Source: a virus (lineage: Duplodnaviria; Heunggongvirae; Uroviricota; Caudoviricetes). From it: DNA of 4,363 nt. The stretch is from IMG/VR virus record IMGVR_UViG_3300029417_000050, positions 1 through 4,363 of that record; one strand, written 5' to 3'. Both the position numbers and the translations under genes were made by a program. The notes under the pieces are model-generated. The model was given only the letters and a program-made list of their open reading frames with translations. It did not search any database and was not told the origin of the DNA. Below, piece after piece: positions 1-4,363 of the stretch (positions within the stretch are counted from its first letter, which is position 1; the number at the start of each line of letters is the position of its first letter).

Positions 1-345
1 GTACTGACCGTTTTCGTCAGTGGTGCCGATGATATTGGAAACGGTCTGCGCGAGTTTCGCTTCCTCGTCGTCGCCGGTGCCGTCTTCCACACGCACGACA
101 ACGGTGACCGGTTTTGACTGGTCGGCGATGGCCTGCAACGATGCCGCCAGCGTGCCTTTTTTACCGGCCTTTGCAATTGCGCTCTGCACATTGGTAATCA
201 GCACCGGTTTATTGAGGGGGAAGGTTTCCGCATCCGCATCGCTGGCCGTGCAGACCATGCCGACAATGGCGGTGGATACGGTGGAAATGACGCGGGTGCC
301 GTCGTTAATCTCCAGCACCTGCACGCCGTGATGATAGTCACTCAT
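1..345 (-). CDS. FI: Phage tail sheath protein, N-terminal 115 codons (P2 gpFI-like); gene continues beyond window start
   Basis: Reverse-complement of 1..345 translates without stops from ATG at 345..343: [115 protein letters not shown]. From memory this matches the N-terminus of P2-type tail sheath proteins. GGAG lies about 8 nt upstream of the ATG (355..352 on minus strand). Absent from the ORF track because no stop falls inside the window. Confidence 0.8.
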
Positions 346-404
346 CCGTTTAACTCCGTGGTTAATGGGTGAGTGATATTTTCAGTTGTGCCGGAGATGT
401 CAGG

Positions 405-998
405 CTATTTGTCCCGGTTGGCTAAGGGATGACACAATTTATTTTTTGTCACGGAGGCGGGGAATTTTTTATAGAGCGTGGACAGGCCAATATCAAAAAT
501 CAGTGCCACGCGTTGACGTGATTCCCCTGCAGCCAACAACCGCCCGGCCTGCTCCCACTCACTCGCGGTGAGTTTCGGACGTCTGCCACCAATACGACCT
601 TTAGCTCTGGCCGCTTCCAGTCCGGCGCGAGTCCGCTCGACAATGAGTTCTCGTTCCATTTCAGCCAGGGCACCCATCACATGAAAGAAAAAACGTCCCA
701 TCGGCGTGCTGGTATCAATGGCATCCGTCAGGCTGCGAAAATTAACGCCGCGTTCGCGCAGTTCCTCAACCAGAATGACCAGATGCCGCATACTACGCCC
801 CAGCCTGTCCAGCTTCCAGACCACCAGAGTGTCACCTGCTGATAATGTTCTGAGCAGTTTTTTCAGTCCCGGTCGGTCGGACTTCGTGCCGCTGATTTTA
901 TCCTCAAAAATCAGCTCACATCCTGCACACTCCAGCGCGTTACGCTGCAATTCCGTGTTCTGGTCATTTGTTGACACGCGCACATAGCCAATAAGCAT
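405..998 (-). CDS. Serine-recombinase DNA invertase (Gin/Pin/Cin/Hin family)
   Basis: Protein begins MLIGYVRVSTNDQNTELQRNAL (catalytic-serine 'VRVSTNDQ' motif of resolvase/invertase N-terminal domain), followed by GDTLVVWKLDRLGRS, MGRFFFHVMGALAEMERELIVERT and a C-terminal helix-turn-helix region (GRRPKL...ALIFDIGLSTLYKK). About 197 aa is the typical size for this family. Start is placed at ATG 998 because AGGGGG (1010..1005) sits 6 nt upstream; the ORF track's ATG at 1004 is directly adjacent to that motif. Stop TAG at 407..405. Confidence 0.93.
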   Translation of the reverse strand: MLIGYVRVSTNDQNTELQRNALECAGCELIFEDKISGTKSDRPGLKKLLRTLSAGDTLVVWKLDRLGRSMRHLVILVEELRERGVNFRSLTDAIDTSTPMGRFFFHVMGALAEMERELIVERTRAGLEAARAKGRIGGRRPKLTASEWEQAGRLLAAGESRQRVALIFDIGLSTLYKKFPASVTKNKLCHPLANRDK

Positions 999-1025
999 GA
1001 GCATCCCCCTGAATAAAAACCGGAG

Positions 1026-1400
1026 ATGATGCCAGTTGCCCGTTATCTCTGCATTTTCATAAACGTTGGTTTGGGAGAAGCGGCGAAAAGGAATGTGGGG
1101 ACTGGGGCGAATCAGATACCTGATATGTCATCATATGCATCAGGTTCAGGCTGGCGAAAAATGCCAGATGGTTCAATTGAACAGTGGGGAGGAATTCGTT
1201 TTCCTGGTGAACACGAGCCTGTATCCGCCAATGTTTCATTCCCAATTCCATTTACACAGACACCGGACATTATAATTGTGTTCGATGGTGGTTTCGGGGG
1301 CGGGAATATGTGGGGGGCGACCAACTGGAGCACTACCGGCTTCATAGCTCACTGCAATTATGGTCTTGAAGGTGGTGCGTTTTTCGCTAAGGGCTGGTAA
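1026..1400 (+). CDS. Silent alternative tail-fiber C-terminal cassette (Sv'-like); no own start, functional part begins at the crossover (about 1066/1080) and encodes 106 aa after the shared GLGE
   Basis: Frame is open from 1026 but the ATGATG at 1026 has GGAG directly abutting it with no spacer and sits in the site/invertase intergenic region. The frame passes through the crossover site encoding VGLGE in the same frame as LGLGE in the expressed fiber. Ends TAA 1398..1400, overlapping the next ATG (TAATG) of a tail-fiber assembly gene. Gly/Trp-rich C-terminus ([15 protein letters not shown]) is consistent with a fiber tip. Confidence 0.65.
1054..1079. repeat. 26-bp invertase crossover site, invertase-proximal (gix/hix/pix-like)
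   Basis: Sequence ttttcataaacg-tt-ggtttgggagaa. The right half ggtttgggagaa resembles the conserved GGTTTT-GATAA half-site of gix/hix sites as I recall them. The 15-bp ttggtttgggagaag (1066..1080) is a perfect inverted copy of 2903..2917. Lies 55 bp upstream of the invertase start, as in Mu/P1/e14. Confidence 0.72.
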
Positions 1401-1843
1401 TGATGAAATATCTGTACGTAAACAACCTGGCATATCCTTACGAACTTCAGTCTCTTTATGTTGAAAAAGGTGAATGGCCTGAAGAAAAAGGTGTTGATAT
1501 AGACGAAGTAATTTTCAGGGAATATTTCTATGATACACCACCAGAAGGAAAATACAGATGTGTCGGAGAGGATGGACTGCCTGCATGGGCAGATATTCCT
1601 CCACCAACACGTGAAGAACAAATTGCATCAGCCGAAACTAAAAAGCAGCAATTGATTAACCAGGCCAACGAATACATCAACAGTAAACAATGGCCAGGTA
1701 AAGCATCAATTGGTCGTCTGAAAGGTGAGGAACTGGCGCAATATAATTTGTGGCTGGATTATCTGGACGCACTGGAGCTGGTCGATACTTCCAGTGCACC
1801 AGATATTGAATGGCCTACTCCTCCGGCAGTTCAGGCCAGATGA
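1400..1843 (+). CDS. Tail fiber assembly protein (chaperone), cognate to the silent cassette (U'-like)
   Basis: 147 aa. C-terminus LWLDYLDALELVDTSSAPDIEWPTPP matches the conserved Tfa C-terminal motif, compare AVLDYIDAVTATDTSTAPDVIWPELP in the convergent gene. Start ATG overlaps the upstream stop (TAATG). Antisense to the late structural operon in this orientation. Confidence 0.85.
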   Translation: MMKYLYVNNLAYPYELQSLYVEKGEWPEEKGVDIDEVIFREYFYDTPPEGKYRCVGEDGLPAWADIPPPTREEQIASAETKKQQLINQANEYINSKQWPGKASIGRLKGEELAQYNLWLDYLDALELVDTSSAPDIEWPTPPAVQAR

Positions 1844-2417
1844 CATCCGGCGCGGTGCTGGTATCTGTTGCCGTCACCGCGTCAATGTAATCCAGCACGG
1901 CGTTAAGTCGGGTTGTTTCTGCCTGCGTCAACTTCCGTCCGGCCTGTAATTTCAGCTGAATCAGACTAATGGAAGCCATTGCTGCATTAATCAGTGACTG
2001 GCGCTGTGCTTCTGCCGCGTCTAGTGCGGCGCTATGCTGTGCCTCGGTATCCGTCACCCATTTCTCACCATCCCATTTATCGTATGGCGTTAATGGGGCG
2101 ATAGTGGTTGTATTTTCAGGGTAATCACCCGGAACTGTGATTTCTTTGGTATCTCCCGTTTCGGTACTATAGACAACTTCACCGCGATGGTCTGGCACAT
2201 ATTCCCATGAATTTAAATCTACAGAGCGACAGATTGCATAACCAGCTTTATGTGTACCTGGTGCATCCAGACAGGAACATGCCGGGATACCGACGCCGAC
2301 AGCGAGATATTCAGTTGATGTAGAAATATATTCCCGCGTTTCGCCATCATAGTTATGTACGATGATTTCCCCATCATTTAAAGCGTAACCGTCTTTTCCC
2401 AAAATAGCCTGTTCCAT
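1815..2417 (-). CDS. Tail fiber assembly protein (chaperone), cognate to the expressed fiber (Mu U / P2 G / lambda Tfa family)
   Basis: 200 aa. Conserved Tfa C-terminal motif RLNAVLDYIDAVTATDTSTAPDVIWPELPEE. ATG 2417..2415 immediately follows the fiber stop TAA 2420..2418 (TAAATG). Stop TAG 1817..1815. Confidence 0.88.
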   Translation of the reverse strand: MEQAILGKDGYALNDGEIIVHNYDGETREYISTSTEYLAVGVGIPACSCLDAPGTHKAGYAICRSVDLNSWEYVPDHRGEVVYSTETGDTKEITVPGDYPENTTTIAPLTPYDKWDGEKWVTDTEAQHSAALDAAEAQRQSLINAAMASISLIQLKLQAGRKLTQAETTRLNAVLDYIDAVTATDTSTAPDVIWPELPEE

Positions 2418-3743
2418 TTATGCAGCCCTCACAATGTAGTTAAATGCAATGTTTCGCGGGCTACCATCACCGGCGCCGGAACTGACATGATTGGTTCTAT
2501 CCATTCGTTTACTGTCATTTGTTGTTCCACTCCCATCCTTCCACGAATACAATATCCCGCCATCGCCAATGCTCAACTGCACCGCAAATACGGATGATGT
2601 ACCTAATTCACCAACATCTCTAGCCATGAGTGGGTTCCCTGTCCATCCATGCATTTCATGGTTATGTTCAAGGATAGATGCTGCCTGACTTGAAAGCAGC
2701 AGTCTCGCGGAATCAACACCTCGCCCATCATCCCACCCGCGAATAAACTCACCGCGCAAATCCGGTAATTTTAACTTTGGGTAAGCCTTTGCCAGTTTTG
2801 GGTACTCTTCGGCAGAAAAAGGTGCACCGTTGCATTTCAGCCAGCCTGTTGGTGGTGTGGCTGAAGGCCACGGAACAGGCACACCAACGGGTAACGCTGA
2901 GCCTTCTCCCAAACCAAGGTATGCGAGAAGACCGGCAACATCCTTTCCACTCAAATGAGTCAGCGTCTCATCCAGTGGCTGCTTACCTGACAGCGCATTG
3001 TTAATGGTGGTGCTGAATTTCGGGTCATTGTTAATGGCCGCGGCAATTTCTTTCAGTGTGTCCAGTGTGGCTGGCGCACCGTTAATCAGAGCGGTAATAG
3101 CGGCCTGTACAAACGCAGTGGTCGCAATCCGCGTGGTGTTATTTCCTGCGGCAGGCGTCGGCGCTTTTGGTTCTCCGGTAAATGTCGGATTATGTTTCTG
3201 TGCATACTGGGTATGAGGGTCCTGTGCGGCAATGTGTTTTCTCATCTGGTCATCCACATACAGCCTTAATTCCAGGACTTCATCATCCACGTATTTACGG
3301 GTCGCCAATACCACCGACGGGTCGATTTTCAGCGTAATAGCTTCGGTATTCGTGACAACCAGAATCATGCGGATAGTCTGGGTACGACCACTTCCTTCCT
3401 GCAACTGCGGTTTGTACGTTTCCGGGCAGTTCGCCACCGCAATGAGTACGCCTTCATCATCATAAAGCCCAATCTCACGGATCCAGAATCCGCCCTCGTT
3501 CTCAGGGATGATTTGCTCCGCAATAATCTGGCTCTGGTTGTTCGGGTCAACACTCAGAAGATTCAGCGGTGCAATGCGTTTCTGATTAATCAGTTTTGTC
3601 TGTGCCGGGTCTGGTGTCGGCAAGACACCATTCGCATCACCAACGGCCATTTGCGTCAGATTCAGCTTACTGCCGAGCATCGTCGCGTTAGCCAGGCGTG
3701 CTGCGCCCTGATTAGTCAGAATGGCGTAGTATTTCACTGTCAT
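2418..3743 (-). CDS. Phage tail fiber protein (P2 gpH-like constant N-terminus fused to the currently expressed variable C-terminus)
   Basis: 441 aa. N-terminal region (MTVKYYAILTNQGAARLA...MAVGDANGVLP...GGFWIREIGLYDDEGVLIAVAN...KPQLQEGSGRTQTIRMILVV) resembles the conserved N-terminal domain of P2 H-type fibers. C-terminal part contains WLKCNGAPFSAEEYPKLAKAY...LPDLRGEFIRGWDDGRGVD, a phage tail-collar-like motif. ATG 3743..3741 overlaps the stop of the upstream gene (ATGA). Confidence 0.92.
   Translation of the reverse strand: MTVKYYAILTNQGAARLANATMLGSKLNLTQMAVGDANGVLPTPDPAQTKLINQKRIAPLNLLSVDPNNQSQIIAEQIIPENEGGFWIREIGLYDDEGVLIAVANCPETYKPQLQEGSGRTQTIRMILVVTNTEAITLKIDPSVVLATRKYVDDEVLELRLYVDDQMRKHIAAQDPHTQYAQKHNPTFTGEPKAPTPAAGNNTTRIATTAFVQAAITALINGAPATLDTLKEIAAAINNDPKFSTTINNALSGKQPLDETLTHLSGKDVAGLLAYLGLGEGSALPVGVPVPWPSATPPTGWLKCNGAPFSAEEYPKLAKAYPKLKLPDLRGEFIRGWDDGRGVDSARLLLSSQAASILEHNHEMHGWTGNPLMARDVGELGTSSVFAVQLSIGDGGILYSWKDGSGTTNDSKRMDRTNHVSSGAGDGSPRNIAFNYIVRAA
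2904..2929. repeat. 26-bp invertase crossover site inside the tail-fiber gene (constant/variable junction, codons about 272-280)
   Basis: Plus strand ttctcccaaacc-aa-ggtatgcgagaa; its reverse complement ttctcgcatacc-tt-ggtttgggagaa shares the core tt plus the right half-site exactly with 1054..1079, and 7 of 12 positions in the other half. Encodes LLAYLGLGE in the fiber. Confidence 0.72.
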
Positions 3744-4351
3744 GCGTTTACTCTCAGGTTATCAATTAAATGAATGGCCGAGGCCGGGAAATAATCCCCT
3801 CCGACAATAATGGCCTCCGGGGTGTAGGGATAAACCGTCAGGGCGTCACCGTGATAGCATCCCGCACCGGCAAAAATGTTGCCGGTTGTACTTAAGCTGA
3901 TAGCCAGTCCCGTCAGATGGCGGCTTGCCGGTTTTGCATCAGCAACGAGGCGCTCCAGCTCCTGATACATTTCCTCGGTAATACCCTGCTCAAGCACACC
4001 AACAACGATGCGGAACGTCCCCGGCTCCTCGTTGAGTTGCCACCACTCCCTCACCTCAATCAGATAGCCGAGCGGCTCCACCACACGCCGGATTGCGCCT
4101 ATAGTGCCCTTATGGCAGTGAATGAAATACGCATCGCGGATAACAGCGCGTTTTGTCGCTTCCGGCCACTTATCATCCCAGCGGTCAACCGAAAATGACC
4201 ACGCCAGCCACGGCAGCAGATTTGCCGGACAGGTATCCGGGTTCCACAGTTCACGAATCCTGACCGGCGTTTTTTCAATTTCCGCACAGGCTTTTGCGGC
4301 GGCAACTTCAAGCGGTGATGAGCCGGTCGGCAGCAGTCGCGAATCACTCAT
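3740..4351 (-). CDS. Phage baseplate/tail protein (P2 gpI-like)
   Basis: 203-aa ORF directly upstream of, and translationally coupled to, the H-like fiber gene (ATGA overlap at 3743..3740), which is the position gpI holds in P2-like tail clusters. GGAGG (4360..4356 on minus strand) lies 4 nt upstream of ATG 4351..4349. Family assignment is from context and recalled similarity, not a search. Confidence 0.78.
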   Translation of the reverse strand: MSDSRLLPTGSSPLEVAAAKACAEIEKTPVRIRELWNPDTCPANLLPWLAWSFSVDRWDDKWPEATKRAVIRDAYFIHCHKGTIGAIRRVVEPLGYLIEVREWWQLNEEPGTFRIVVGVLEQGITEEMYQELERLVADAKPASRHLTGLAISLSTTGNIFAGAGCYHGDALTVYPYTPEAIIVGGDYFPASAIHLIDNLRVNA

Positions 4352-4363
4352 CCGAGCCTCCGG

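What the first reader, a model, noticed from the sequence alone, without database searches (positions are those of the whole stretch)
1026..1843. Silent cassette is start-less, AT-rich, and encodes an unrelated receptor-binding tip
The alternative fiber segment has no credible start of its own and is followed by its own chaperone, so it can only be expressed after inversion. Its 106-aa tip shows no visible similarity to the expressed 161-aa tip. Hand counts on 60-nt samples give about 35% G+C at 1400..1459 versus about 62% at 61..120, and the 5' part of the other chaperone gene (about 2100..2417) also looks AT-rich while both conserved chaperone 3' ends look GC-richer. This points to modular acquisition of tip-plus-chaperone pairs from a different source than the constant region.
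Basis: partly seen in the sequence, partly recalled or inferred. Interest (0 to 1): 0.55.

Follow-up and report, generated by a model that had tools for sequence, protein, structure and literature searches.

The report
P2-like prophage invertible tail-fibre switch
This is an ordinary, already described phage host-range switch: a Gin-like invertase flips an 1.9-kb DNA segment so that one tail-fibre gene ends in either of two unrelated receptor-binding tips, each with its own chaperone.

Summary
The window is the tail-fibre region of a P2-like (Peduovirus) prophage and is 100% identical to a public assembly contig. An invertase 80% identical to Mu Gin (405-998, minus strand) lies next to an invertible segment bounded by 27-nt inverted repeats (1054-1080 and 2903-2929). 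The finding (1026-1843) is the parked cassette: a 106-aa Gp53-like tip and a 147-aa chaperone.

The GC counts are exact. The tips are unrelated (BLASTP E=34, hhalign probability 0.2%, disjoint Pfam, PHROG and PDB relatives). The cassette has no start of its own. Near-identical E. coli prophages carry the segment flipped, giving the predicted 386-aa fibre.

"AT-rich silent cassette" is misleading. The parked tip is 50% G+C, like the expressed tip. The 35% sample lies in the chaperone gene, and the 62% comparator lies in the sheath gene. At third codon positions both cassettes are depressed, most strongly in the chaperone N-terminal parts (0.28 and 0.34, against 0.58 in core genes).

Modular exchange is well supported. 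Across 75 loci the distal tip co-varies with the chaperone N-terminus. The same cassette occurs with different fibre shafts, different invertases and a non-P2 baseplate. All of this is established biology, so interest is low.

The parts
1..345 (-).
   Evidence: Translation MSDYHHGVQ...; the matching genes are annotated as tail sheath protein in relatives; GC3 0.71
405..998 (-). Serine DNA invertase of the Gin/Cin/Pin/Hin group, 197 aa, catalytic Ser9 present
   Evidence: Pfam Resolvase plus HTH_7; PDB 3UJ3 DNA-invertase at E=1.7e-94; 80% identity to Mu Gin over 181 aa; the ATG at 998 has the strong Shine-Dalgarno sequence (-9.4 kcal/mol)
1026..1079 (+). Short open leader ([18 protein letters not shown]) that begins outside the invertible segment and runs through the crossover site; probably not a real translation start
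   Evidence: GGAG lies 0 and 3 nt from ATG 1026 and 1029, and there is an in-frame stop at 1014; no promoter-like site points into it; leaders differ across 40 silent loci and some have no Met; PGAP nevertheless annotates the ORF
1054..1080 (.). Left crossover site (inverted repeat arm) next to the invertase gene
   Evidence: Repeat I1, 27 nt, 81% complementary; 16-nt core found only at the two sites, 0 of 200 shuffles give two matches; the orientation of homology to L004 and L005 switches here
1080..1400 (+). Parked (silent) variable tip Sv', 106 aa plus stop, Gp53-like_C domain
   Evidence: Pfam PF21882 at 30.2 bits, cut-off 24.9; phrog_1396 tail fiber; weak PDB matches to short tail fiber gp92 and to an R2-type pyocin; fused in frame to the constant region in L004 and L005
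1400..1843 (+). Chaperone U' of the parked cassette, 147 aa; N-terminal ~87 codons have very low GC3; C-terminal ~65 aa are conserved
   Evidence: Pfam Caudo_TAP at E=1e-33; GC3 0.28 for codons 1-87, Fisher p=5e-8 against core genes; C-terminal part 43% identical to U
1815..2417 (-). Chaperone U of the expressed cassette, 200 aa; its 3' end overlaps U' by 29 nt
   Evidence: Pfam Caudo_TAP at E=1e-31; phrog_105; GC3 0.34 for codons 1-107 and 0.56 for codons 108-200; the mosaic break with L006 falls at 2096
2418..3743 (-). Expressed tail-fibre gene (P2 H homologue), 441 aa: constant part 3743-2904 (280 aa) and variable Collar-domain tip 2903-2421 (161 aa)
   Evidence: Pfam Phage_tail_fib at residues 1-150 and Collar at 287-334; PDB 2XGF (T4 gp37 tip) at E=2e-15; the exact protein is found on 23 public contigs
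2903..2929 (.). Right crossover site, inside the fibre ORF (encodes ...AYLGLGE)
   Evidence: orientation of homology switches here
3740..4351 (-). P2 gpI-type baseplate protein; upstream gene of the late operon
   Evidence: Pfam Tail_P2_I at E=4e-56; annotated phage tail protein I in relatives

Best explanation
The window holds a two-state, invertase-driven host-range switch in the late tail operon of a P2-like prophage.

How it works: the fibre gene on the minus strand has a constant 280-aa N-terminal part that attaches to the baseplate. A 26/27-bp crossover site lies in frame at the codons for GLGE. A Gin-like serine recombinase, encoded just outside the segment, exchanges strands between this site and its inverted copy 1.85 kb away. 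That flips the segment 1054-2929.

In the orientation seen here, the constant part is joined to a 161-aa Collar-type tip (related to the T4 gp37 tip), followed by its chaperone U. The second cassette, a 106-aa Gp53-like tip plus chaperone U' (the finding), faces the other way with no promoter or start of its own. After inversion, the constant part is joined in frame to the Gp53-like tip, giving a 386-aa fibre, with U' translated behind it. The Collar cassette is then the parked one.

Both cassettes are mosaic modules drawn from a pool shared among enterobacterial phages. The exchanged unit is the distal tip plus the N-terminal, fibre-binding domain of the chaperone. It is flanked by conserved sequence: the crossover site and proximal tip on one side, the chaperone C-terminal trimerisation domain on the other.

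Shown here: the anatomy, the frame, both orientations in close relatives, and the mosaic pattern.
Inferred: that inversion is active in this strain, and that the two tips recognise different receptors.
For: - P2-like context and synteny. The window is 100% identical to L010.
- Invertase: Resolvase plus HTH_7, PDB Gin-type DNA-invertase at E=1.7e-94, 80% identical to Mu Gin.
- Crossover sites: 27-nt inverted repeat, only two copies, 0 of 200 shuffles give two matches, same central dinucleotide in both.
- In-frame fusion predicted at 386 aa and observed as an 1161-nt (386-codon) fibre CDS in E. coli EA2.
- In L004 and L005, window 1063-2920 aligns in the opposite orientation to both flanks at 97-99% identity.
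- The fused junction occurs in 4 complete E. coli genomes and the parked junction in 41.
- In IMG/VR loci, 38 are parked next to an invertase and 30 are fused to a long ORF.
- Tips unrelated.
- Modular exchange: mosaic breaks at 1154/1539, 2096, 2356/2704 and 2461/2712. Distal-tip classes pair with chaperone N-terminal classes while the chaperone C-terminus stays 91-97% identical. The same tip class is joined to ORFs of 208, 232 and 391 aa and sits beside invertases 54-98% identical to this one.
- The cassette also occurs in a non-P2 tail module.
- Literature: Tfa chaperones have a variable fibre-binding N-domain and a conserved C-domain (PMC9608196). Inversion in P2-like prophages has been measured in EPEC (PMC4272514). 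Fibre and chaperone swapping plus an invertase at this P2 hotspot has been described (bioRxiv 10.1101/2024.10.15.618418).
Against: - Inversion was not observed in this strain. The window is a single assembled state, and all six exact or near-exact contigs retrieved (L008-L013) have the same orientation.
- The Fis-dependent enhancer expected in the 5' part of the invertase gene was not tested.
- The parked junction outnumbers the fused junction about 10 to 1 among complete E. coli genomes. That could mean a biased or slow switch.
- The receptors of the two tips are unknown.
Confidence: 0.93

Rival explanations
1. The silent cassette was recently imported from a lower-G+C donor, and its AT-richness marks that foreign origin, in contrast to a native constant region and expressed cassette.
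For: GC3 of U' codons 1-87 is 0.28 against 0.58 in core genes (p=5e-8). The finding as a whole is 45.7% G+C against 51.2% for the window. The full-length parked tip is rare in isolated phages, with one record at 42% identity.
Against: The parked tip is 50% G+C, the same as the expressed tip. The expressed cassette shows the same GC3 depression (tip 0.42, chaperone N-part 0.34), so the signal does not separate silent from expressed. Low GC3 is a property of these chaperone N-domain classes in every context examined (mean 0.35 over 75 loci). This fits a long-circulating shared pool better than a recent import. No low-G+C donor was identified.
Confidence: 0.15
2. ORF 1026-1400 is an independent gene, as PGAP annotates it ('gp53-like domain-containing protein'), translated from ATG 1026 or 1029 in the parked state to give a free 124-aa tip fragment.
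For: ATGs at 1026 and 1029 with GGAG just upstream (-6.6 kcal/mol for 1029). PGAP annotation in relatives. The leader KPEMMPV... recurs within the P2-like subgroup.
Against: The Shine-Dalgarno spacing of 0 and 3 nt is too short. No promoter-like site faces the ORF. The leader lies outside the invertible segment and fuses to whichever tip is parked, so it is not part of the cassette. In other contexts the open frame upstream of GLGE has only 2-8 codons and no Met. A tip lacking the baseplate-attachment domain has no obvious way to enter a virion.
Confidence: 0.04
3. The switch is frozen: a relic whose invertase or sites no longer work, so the parked cassette is a fossil that is never expressed.
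For: All retrieved contigs with the exact fibre protein share one orientation. The parked junction is about ten times more frequent than the fused one in complete genomes. The repeat arms are only 81% complementary.
Against: All ORFs in both cassettes are intact. The invertase is full length with Ser9 and is 80% identical to Gin. The conserved half-site and central dinucleotide are identical in both arms, and imperfect outer half-sites are normal for this family (own knowledge). L005 carries the segment at 99.2% identity in the flipped orientation, so the inversion there is recent.
Confidence: 0.05

Closest known systems
Phage Mu G segment with Gin (also P1 C segment with Cin and e14 P segment with PinE)
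   Same: The invertase is 80% identical to Gin. It is encoded just outside one end of the segment. The ~26-bp dyad crossover sites are in inverted orientation, with one inside the fibre ORF. The layout is a constant N-part, two alternative C-parts each followed by a chaperone, and convergent cassettes.
   Different: The fibre and tip proteins have no detectable similarity to Mu S or S'. Only the chaperone C-terminal domain matches (30% over 73 aa). The segment is 1.9 kb against 3 kb in Mu. The variable tips are short (106 and 161 aa). The backbone is P2-like, not Mu-like. The crossover sequence shares about 16 of 26 positions with gix (counted by eye).
Invertible fibre loci of P2-like prophages (EPEC E2348/69 prophages in PMC4272514; P2-like Z/fun hotspot in bioRxiv 10.1101/2024.10.15.618418; annotated phages such as Peduovirus 'P2' KC618326, pro483 and MET_P1_103_31)
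   Same: Same gene order: I, H, chaperone, chaperone', tip', invertase, sheath. Identity is 92-98% over the flanks. The switch is two-state.
   Different: The cassette content differs. The best-matching annotated records lack window 1155-1538, or 2357-2703. One EPEC locus is a three-site shufflon, whereas this window has only two sites.
Tfa-type tail fibre assembly chaperones (Mu Tfa, PDB 5YVQ; Pam3 gp25)
   Same: A variable N-terminal domain that binds the distal fibre plus a conserved C-terminal helical domain (PMC9608196). Here the two chaperones match only over the C-terminal ~79 columns, and the N-domain co-varies with the tip.
   Different: No structure or binding data exist for these two chaperones. 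Whether they stay on the virion, as in Mu, is unknown.

Membership tests
Gin/Cin/Pin/Hin-type invertible tail-fibre segment | Small serine recombinase (Resolvase catalytic domain plus C-terminal HTH, about 190 aa, catalytic Ser9) encoded next to the segment | tested here: met
   197 aa, Resolvase plus HTH_7, E=1.7e-94 to PDB 3UJ3 DNA-invertase, 80% identity to Mu Gin; sequence MLIGYVRVS places Ser at position 9.
Gin/Cin/Pin/Hin-type invertible tail-fibre segment | Two ~26-bp imperfect dyad crossover sites in inverted orientation with the same central dinucleotide | tested here: met
   TTTTCATAAACGTTGGTTTGGGAGAA and TTCTCGCATACCTTGGTTTGGGAGAA, both with central TT. Only two copies; 0 of 200 shuffles give two matches.
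Gin/Cin/Pin/Hin-type invertible tail-fibre segment | One site lies inside the fibre ORF, so inversion swaps the C-terminal part in frame | tested here: met
   in-silico flip gives an open 386-aa fibre; 386-codon fibre CDS in E. coli EA2.
Gin/Cin/Pin/Hin-type invertible tail-fibre segment | Both orientations occur | tested here: met
   Met for close relatives: L004 and L005 have 1063-2920 inverted relative to the flanks at 97-99% identity; 4 fused against 41 parked junctions. Not tested within the source strain, because no reads are available.
Gin/Cin/Pin/Hin-type invertible tail-fibre segment | Fis-dependent recombinational enhancer within the 5' part of the invertase gene | not tested
   The first 260 nt of the gene align with Mu gin without gaps, but Fis sites were not evaluated and activity cannot be tested with these tools.
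P2-like (Peduovirus) tail module | gpI-type baseplate protein, fibre with the P2 H-type N-terminal domain, and sheath FI downstream, in P2 gene order | tested here: met
   Tail_P2_I, Phage_tail_fib; synteny with Peduovirus records, including J, W, V, sheath, tube and gpE.
Tfa / Caudo_TAP tail fibre assembly chaperones | PF02413 match, with a conserved C-terminal domain and a variable N-terminal domain | tested here: met
   116.8 and 109.9 bits, cut-off 22.1; similarity confined to the C-terminal ~79 columns, hhalign 99.3%.
Gp53-like_C tip domain (PF21882) | Pfam score above the gathering threshold | tested here: met
   30.2 bits against a cut-off of 24.9, residues 45-112 of the 124-aa ORF.
Phage tail Collar domain tip (PF07484; T4 gp37-tip-like) | Pfam score above the gathering threshold and similarity to a solved collar or needle tip | tested here: met
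   53.8 bits against a cut-off of 24. PDB 2XGF at E=2.1e-15, covering residues 282-424.

The most novel reading that the evidence does not exclude
The parked cassette may not be fully silent. The ATG at 1029, which lies outside the segment and fuses in frame to whichever tip is parked, could drive low-level synthesis of a free tip fragment together with its chaperone in the lysogen. One possible role would be a receptor-blocking or superinfection-exclusion factor. Nothing found here supports this beyond the existence of the ATG, a mis-spaced GGAG, and conservation of the leader within the P2-like subgroup. That conservation is equally well explained by constraints on the crossover site and the invertase promoter.
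Probability: 0.03. Interest if true: 0.5.

Novelty: already known. Interest (0 to 1): 0.12.

Why it matters
As biology it adds little. Invertase-driven tail-fibre switching and mosaic exchange of tips and chaperones have been textbook cases since Mu, P1 and e14, and both have been described for P2-like prophages.

Two practical points follow:
- Annotation pipelines call the parked tip a stand-alone gene, which it very probably is not.
- Anyone engineering or predicting the host range of P2-like phages or tailocins should treat the distal tip plus the chaperone N-terminal domain as the unit to transplant. The chaperone C-terminal domain and the GLGE crossover region are the natural splice points.

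The Gp53-like tip carried here has only one full-length relative among isolated phages (42% identity), so its receptor is unknown.

Tried and rejected
- My first codon-position counts for the parked tip and my first tip comparisons used the wrong frame, 1081 instead of 1080. They wrongly suggested normal GC3 in the tip and near-zero tip identity. Both were redone. The sheath frame was also corrected to 345-1.
- Terminator-like hairpin at 1037-1018 (minus strand), between the crossover site and the invertase start: the fold is not better than shuffles (z=-1.05). Dropped.
- Extra crossover sites that would make a shufflon, as in one EPEC P2-like prophage: none found with up to 3 mismatches.
- NCBIfam gave no family for the fibre, tips or chaperones, and only below-cut-off recombinase hits for the invertase. 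Uninformative.
- Promoter scan: 4 sites against 3.2 expected, none placed to drive the parked cassette. This is weak negative evidence only.
- I considered structure prediction of the parked tip, and large-database homology searches to build deeper tip profiles. I skipped both because Pfam, PHROG, PDB and hhalign already agree that the tips are unrelated.

Full report
**What the window is.** All long ORFs except two lie on the minus strand. In order they are:
- the 5' end of a tail sheath gene (345-1)
- a 197-aa serine recombinase (998-405)
- a 200-aa chaperone (2417-1815)
- a 441-aa tail fibre (3743-2418)
- a P2 gpI-type baseplate protein (4351-3740)

Two plus-strand ORFs sit between the recombinase and the minus-strand chaperone: 1026-1400 (124 aa) and 1400-1843 (147 aa). 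Pfam assigns these families:
- Resolvase plus HTH_7 to the recombinase
- Caudo_TAP to both chaperones
- Phage_tail_fib (N-terminal) plus Collar to the fibre
- Gp53-like_C to ORF 1026-1400
- Tail_P2_I to the last gene

A 27-nt inverted repeat (1054-1080 and 2903-2929) brackets the two chaperone genes and both fibre tips. Its 16-nt core occurs only at these two places, and 0 of 200 shuffles give two matches. Megablast places the window in P2-like (Peduovirus) prophages of E. coli and relatives. The exact fibre protein is on 23 public contigs, and one of them (L010, GCA_030870405.1) is 100% identical to the window.

**Checking the observation.** The tip lengths (106 and 161 aa) and the in-frame junction at the codons for GLGE are correct.

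The two tips are unrelated by every test:
- BLASTP gives E=34.
- They belong to different Pfam families and disjoint PHROG families.
- Their solved-structure relatives differ. The expressed tip matches the T4 gp37 tip 2XGF at E=2e-15. The parked tip matches a short tail fiber gp92 and an R2-type pyocin only weakly.
- A profile-profile comparison gives probability 0.2% over 7 columns. The same procedure gives 99.3% for the two chaperones, which serves as a positive control.

The chaperones share only their C-terminal ~65-79 residues.

**The 'start-less' claim.** It is essentially right, with a caveat. ATGs exist at 1026 and 1029, with GGAG 0 and 3 nt upstream, and NCBI's PGAP annotates the ORF in relatives. 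Several things argue against a real start:
- These ATGs lie outside the invertible segment.
- An in-frame stop sits at 1014.
- No promoter-like site faces the ORF.
- In genomes with the segment flipped, the same leader is fused to the other tip.
- Across 40 parked loci the leader varies, and in several there is no Met at all.

The cassette therefore has no start of its own.

'AT-rich silent cassette' does not describe the tip. I first made a frame error here: searches used 1081 instead of 1080. correct it.
- The parked tip is 50.0% G+C, the expressed tip 50.3%, and the constant region 51.3%.

Third-codon-position G+C, with Fisher p values against the core genes:

| Region | GC3 | p |
|---|---|---|
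| Core genes (sheath, invertase, constant region, gpI) | 0.58 | – |
| Parked tip | 0.43 | 0.005 |
| Expressed tip | 0.42 | 2.5e-4 |
| U' codons 1-87 | 0.28 | 5e-8 |
| U codons 1-107 | 0.34 | 2e-6 |
| U' C-terminal part | 0.42 | 0.015 |
| U C-terminal part | 0.56 | not significant |

There is a real compositional anomaly, but it affects both cassettes. It peaks in the two chaperone N-terminal domains and does not single out the silent cassette.

**Does the segment invert?** I built the flipped junction in silico (constant region joined to the parked tip) and searched complete E. coli genomes.
- Four genomes carry the flipped junction over its full length at 92-98% identity. Forty-one carry the parked junction as in the window.
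- In E. coli EA2 and NCTC9040 the gene order is I, fibre (386 aa in EA2, exactly as predicted), U', then U and the Collar tip on the other strand, then invertase and sheath.
- Against these loci, window 1-1080 and 2903-4363 align in one orientation and 1063-2920 in the other, at 95-99% identity. The orientation change therefore falls inside the repeats.

The invertase is 80% identical to Mu Gin, has Ser9, and matches the solved Gin-type invertase at E=1.7e-94. Both sites have the same conserved half-site and central TT. Only two sites exist, so this is a two-state switch and not a shufflon. Inversion in this particular strain was not observed: all six near-identical contigs have the same orientation.

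**Modular exchange.**
- The best-matching records lack discrete blocks of the window: 1155-1538 (distal parked tip plus the first 46 codons of U') in L001 and L002 (L003 lacks the nearly coincident 1139-1536), 2357-2703 in L002, and 2462-2711 in L003.
- An E. coli O55:H7 locus shares only 460-2096 (invertase, parked tip, U', and the C-terminal half of U). There the cassette sits beside a non-P2 baseplate (DUF2612, gp47-like J) next to pphA. The break at 2096 is where GC3 drops.
- Among 75 IMG/VR loci encoding U' relatives, distal-tip identity falls into classes, each with its own chaperone N-terminal class: 93/100%, 74/78%, and 17-30/22-48%. Meanwhile the chaperone C-terminus stays 91-97% identical and the proximal 25 tip residues stay 40-96% (66-96% in all but one four-locus class).
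- The same tip class is found parked (112-131-codon open frames) or fused to ORFs of 208, 232 or 391 aa. It sits beside invertases 54-98% identical to this one.

The exchanged unit is therefore the distal tip plus the chaperone N-terminal domain, spliced at conserved flanks. This matches published structures, in which the variable N-domain of Tfa-type chaperones binds the distal fibre and the conserved C-domain mediates trimerisation (PMC9608196).

**Comparison with what is known.**
- The anatomy matches the Mu G segment point for point, but the fibre cargo is unrelated in sequence.
- Inversions in P2-like prophages have been quantified experimentally in EPEC (PMC4272514).
- Fibre and chaperone swapping with a nearby invertase at this P2 hotspot has been described (bioRxiv 10.1101/2024.10.15.618418).
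- From my own knowledge, horizontal exchange of tail-fibre and chaperone segments among P2, Mu, P1, lambda and T-even phages was argued from sequence in the early 1990s (Haggard-Ljungquist et al. 1992; Sandmeier et al. 1992, 1994). I could not retrieve those papers here.

**Verdict.** The finding is real and mostly correctly read. It describes an ordinary, well-understood system that is already annotated in public records. The headline claim, AT-richness of the silent cassette, is overstated. The correct statement is a third-position depression in both cassettes, centred on the chaperone N-domains. Novelty: already known. Interest: low.

Noticed in passing
window 1815-1843, 1753-1770 and 1879-1896: The two convergent chaperone genes overlap by 29 nt at their 3' ends. 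Inverted repeat I2 (18 nt, 83%) is the DNA image of the shared C-terminal motif (LDYLDA / LDYIDA) encoded on opposite strands. It is a possible internal substrate for homologous exchange between cassettes.
   Followed up: partly
window 1026-1400; L001 2526-2924; L004 5265-5801: PGAP annotates whichever tip is parked as a stand-alone gene ('gp53-like domain-containing protein' or 'phage tail protein'), using an ATG that lies outside the invertible segment. This is most likely a systematic annotation artefact at such loci.
   Followed up: yes
L007 (Escherichia phage vB_EcoM_IME392) 2969-6814: A 116-kb phage carries a fibre with a Gp53-like tip (42% identical to the parked tip) plus a chaperone, followed in tandem by a collar fibre plus a chaperone. 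All are on one strand and there is no invertase. It has the same two tip kinds, apparently both expressed at once instead of alternately.
   Followed up: no
L006 (E. coli O55:H7 DEC5E) 6791-8754 and 8754-14826: The same invertase, parked tip and chaperone block (91% identical to window 460-2096) is attached to a non-P2 baseplate cluster (DUF2612, baseplate J/gp47 family, spike) beside pphA. The switch module moves between phage types.
   Followed up: partly
L008 and L009 1278-2514 (same prophage, 99.7% identical to the window): A gene with a weak RVT_1 (reverse transcriptase) match lies just after the gpA replication gene, at the known P2 old/tin hotspot. It may be a retron-type defence gene. 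The baseplate V gene region looks disrupted in L008.
   Followed up: no
window 2640-2665 (minus strand), fibre residues about 360-368: The expressed tip contains EHNHEMHG, a pair of His-x-His motifs, within the stretch that matches the T4 gp37 tip (2XGF). In gp37 such motifs coordinate metal ions (own knowledge). The parked tip has none.
   Followed up: no
window 1018-1037 (minus strand): A terminator-like hairpin lies between the crossover site and the invertase start. Its folding energy is not better than shuffled sequence (z=-1.05).
   Followed up: yes
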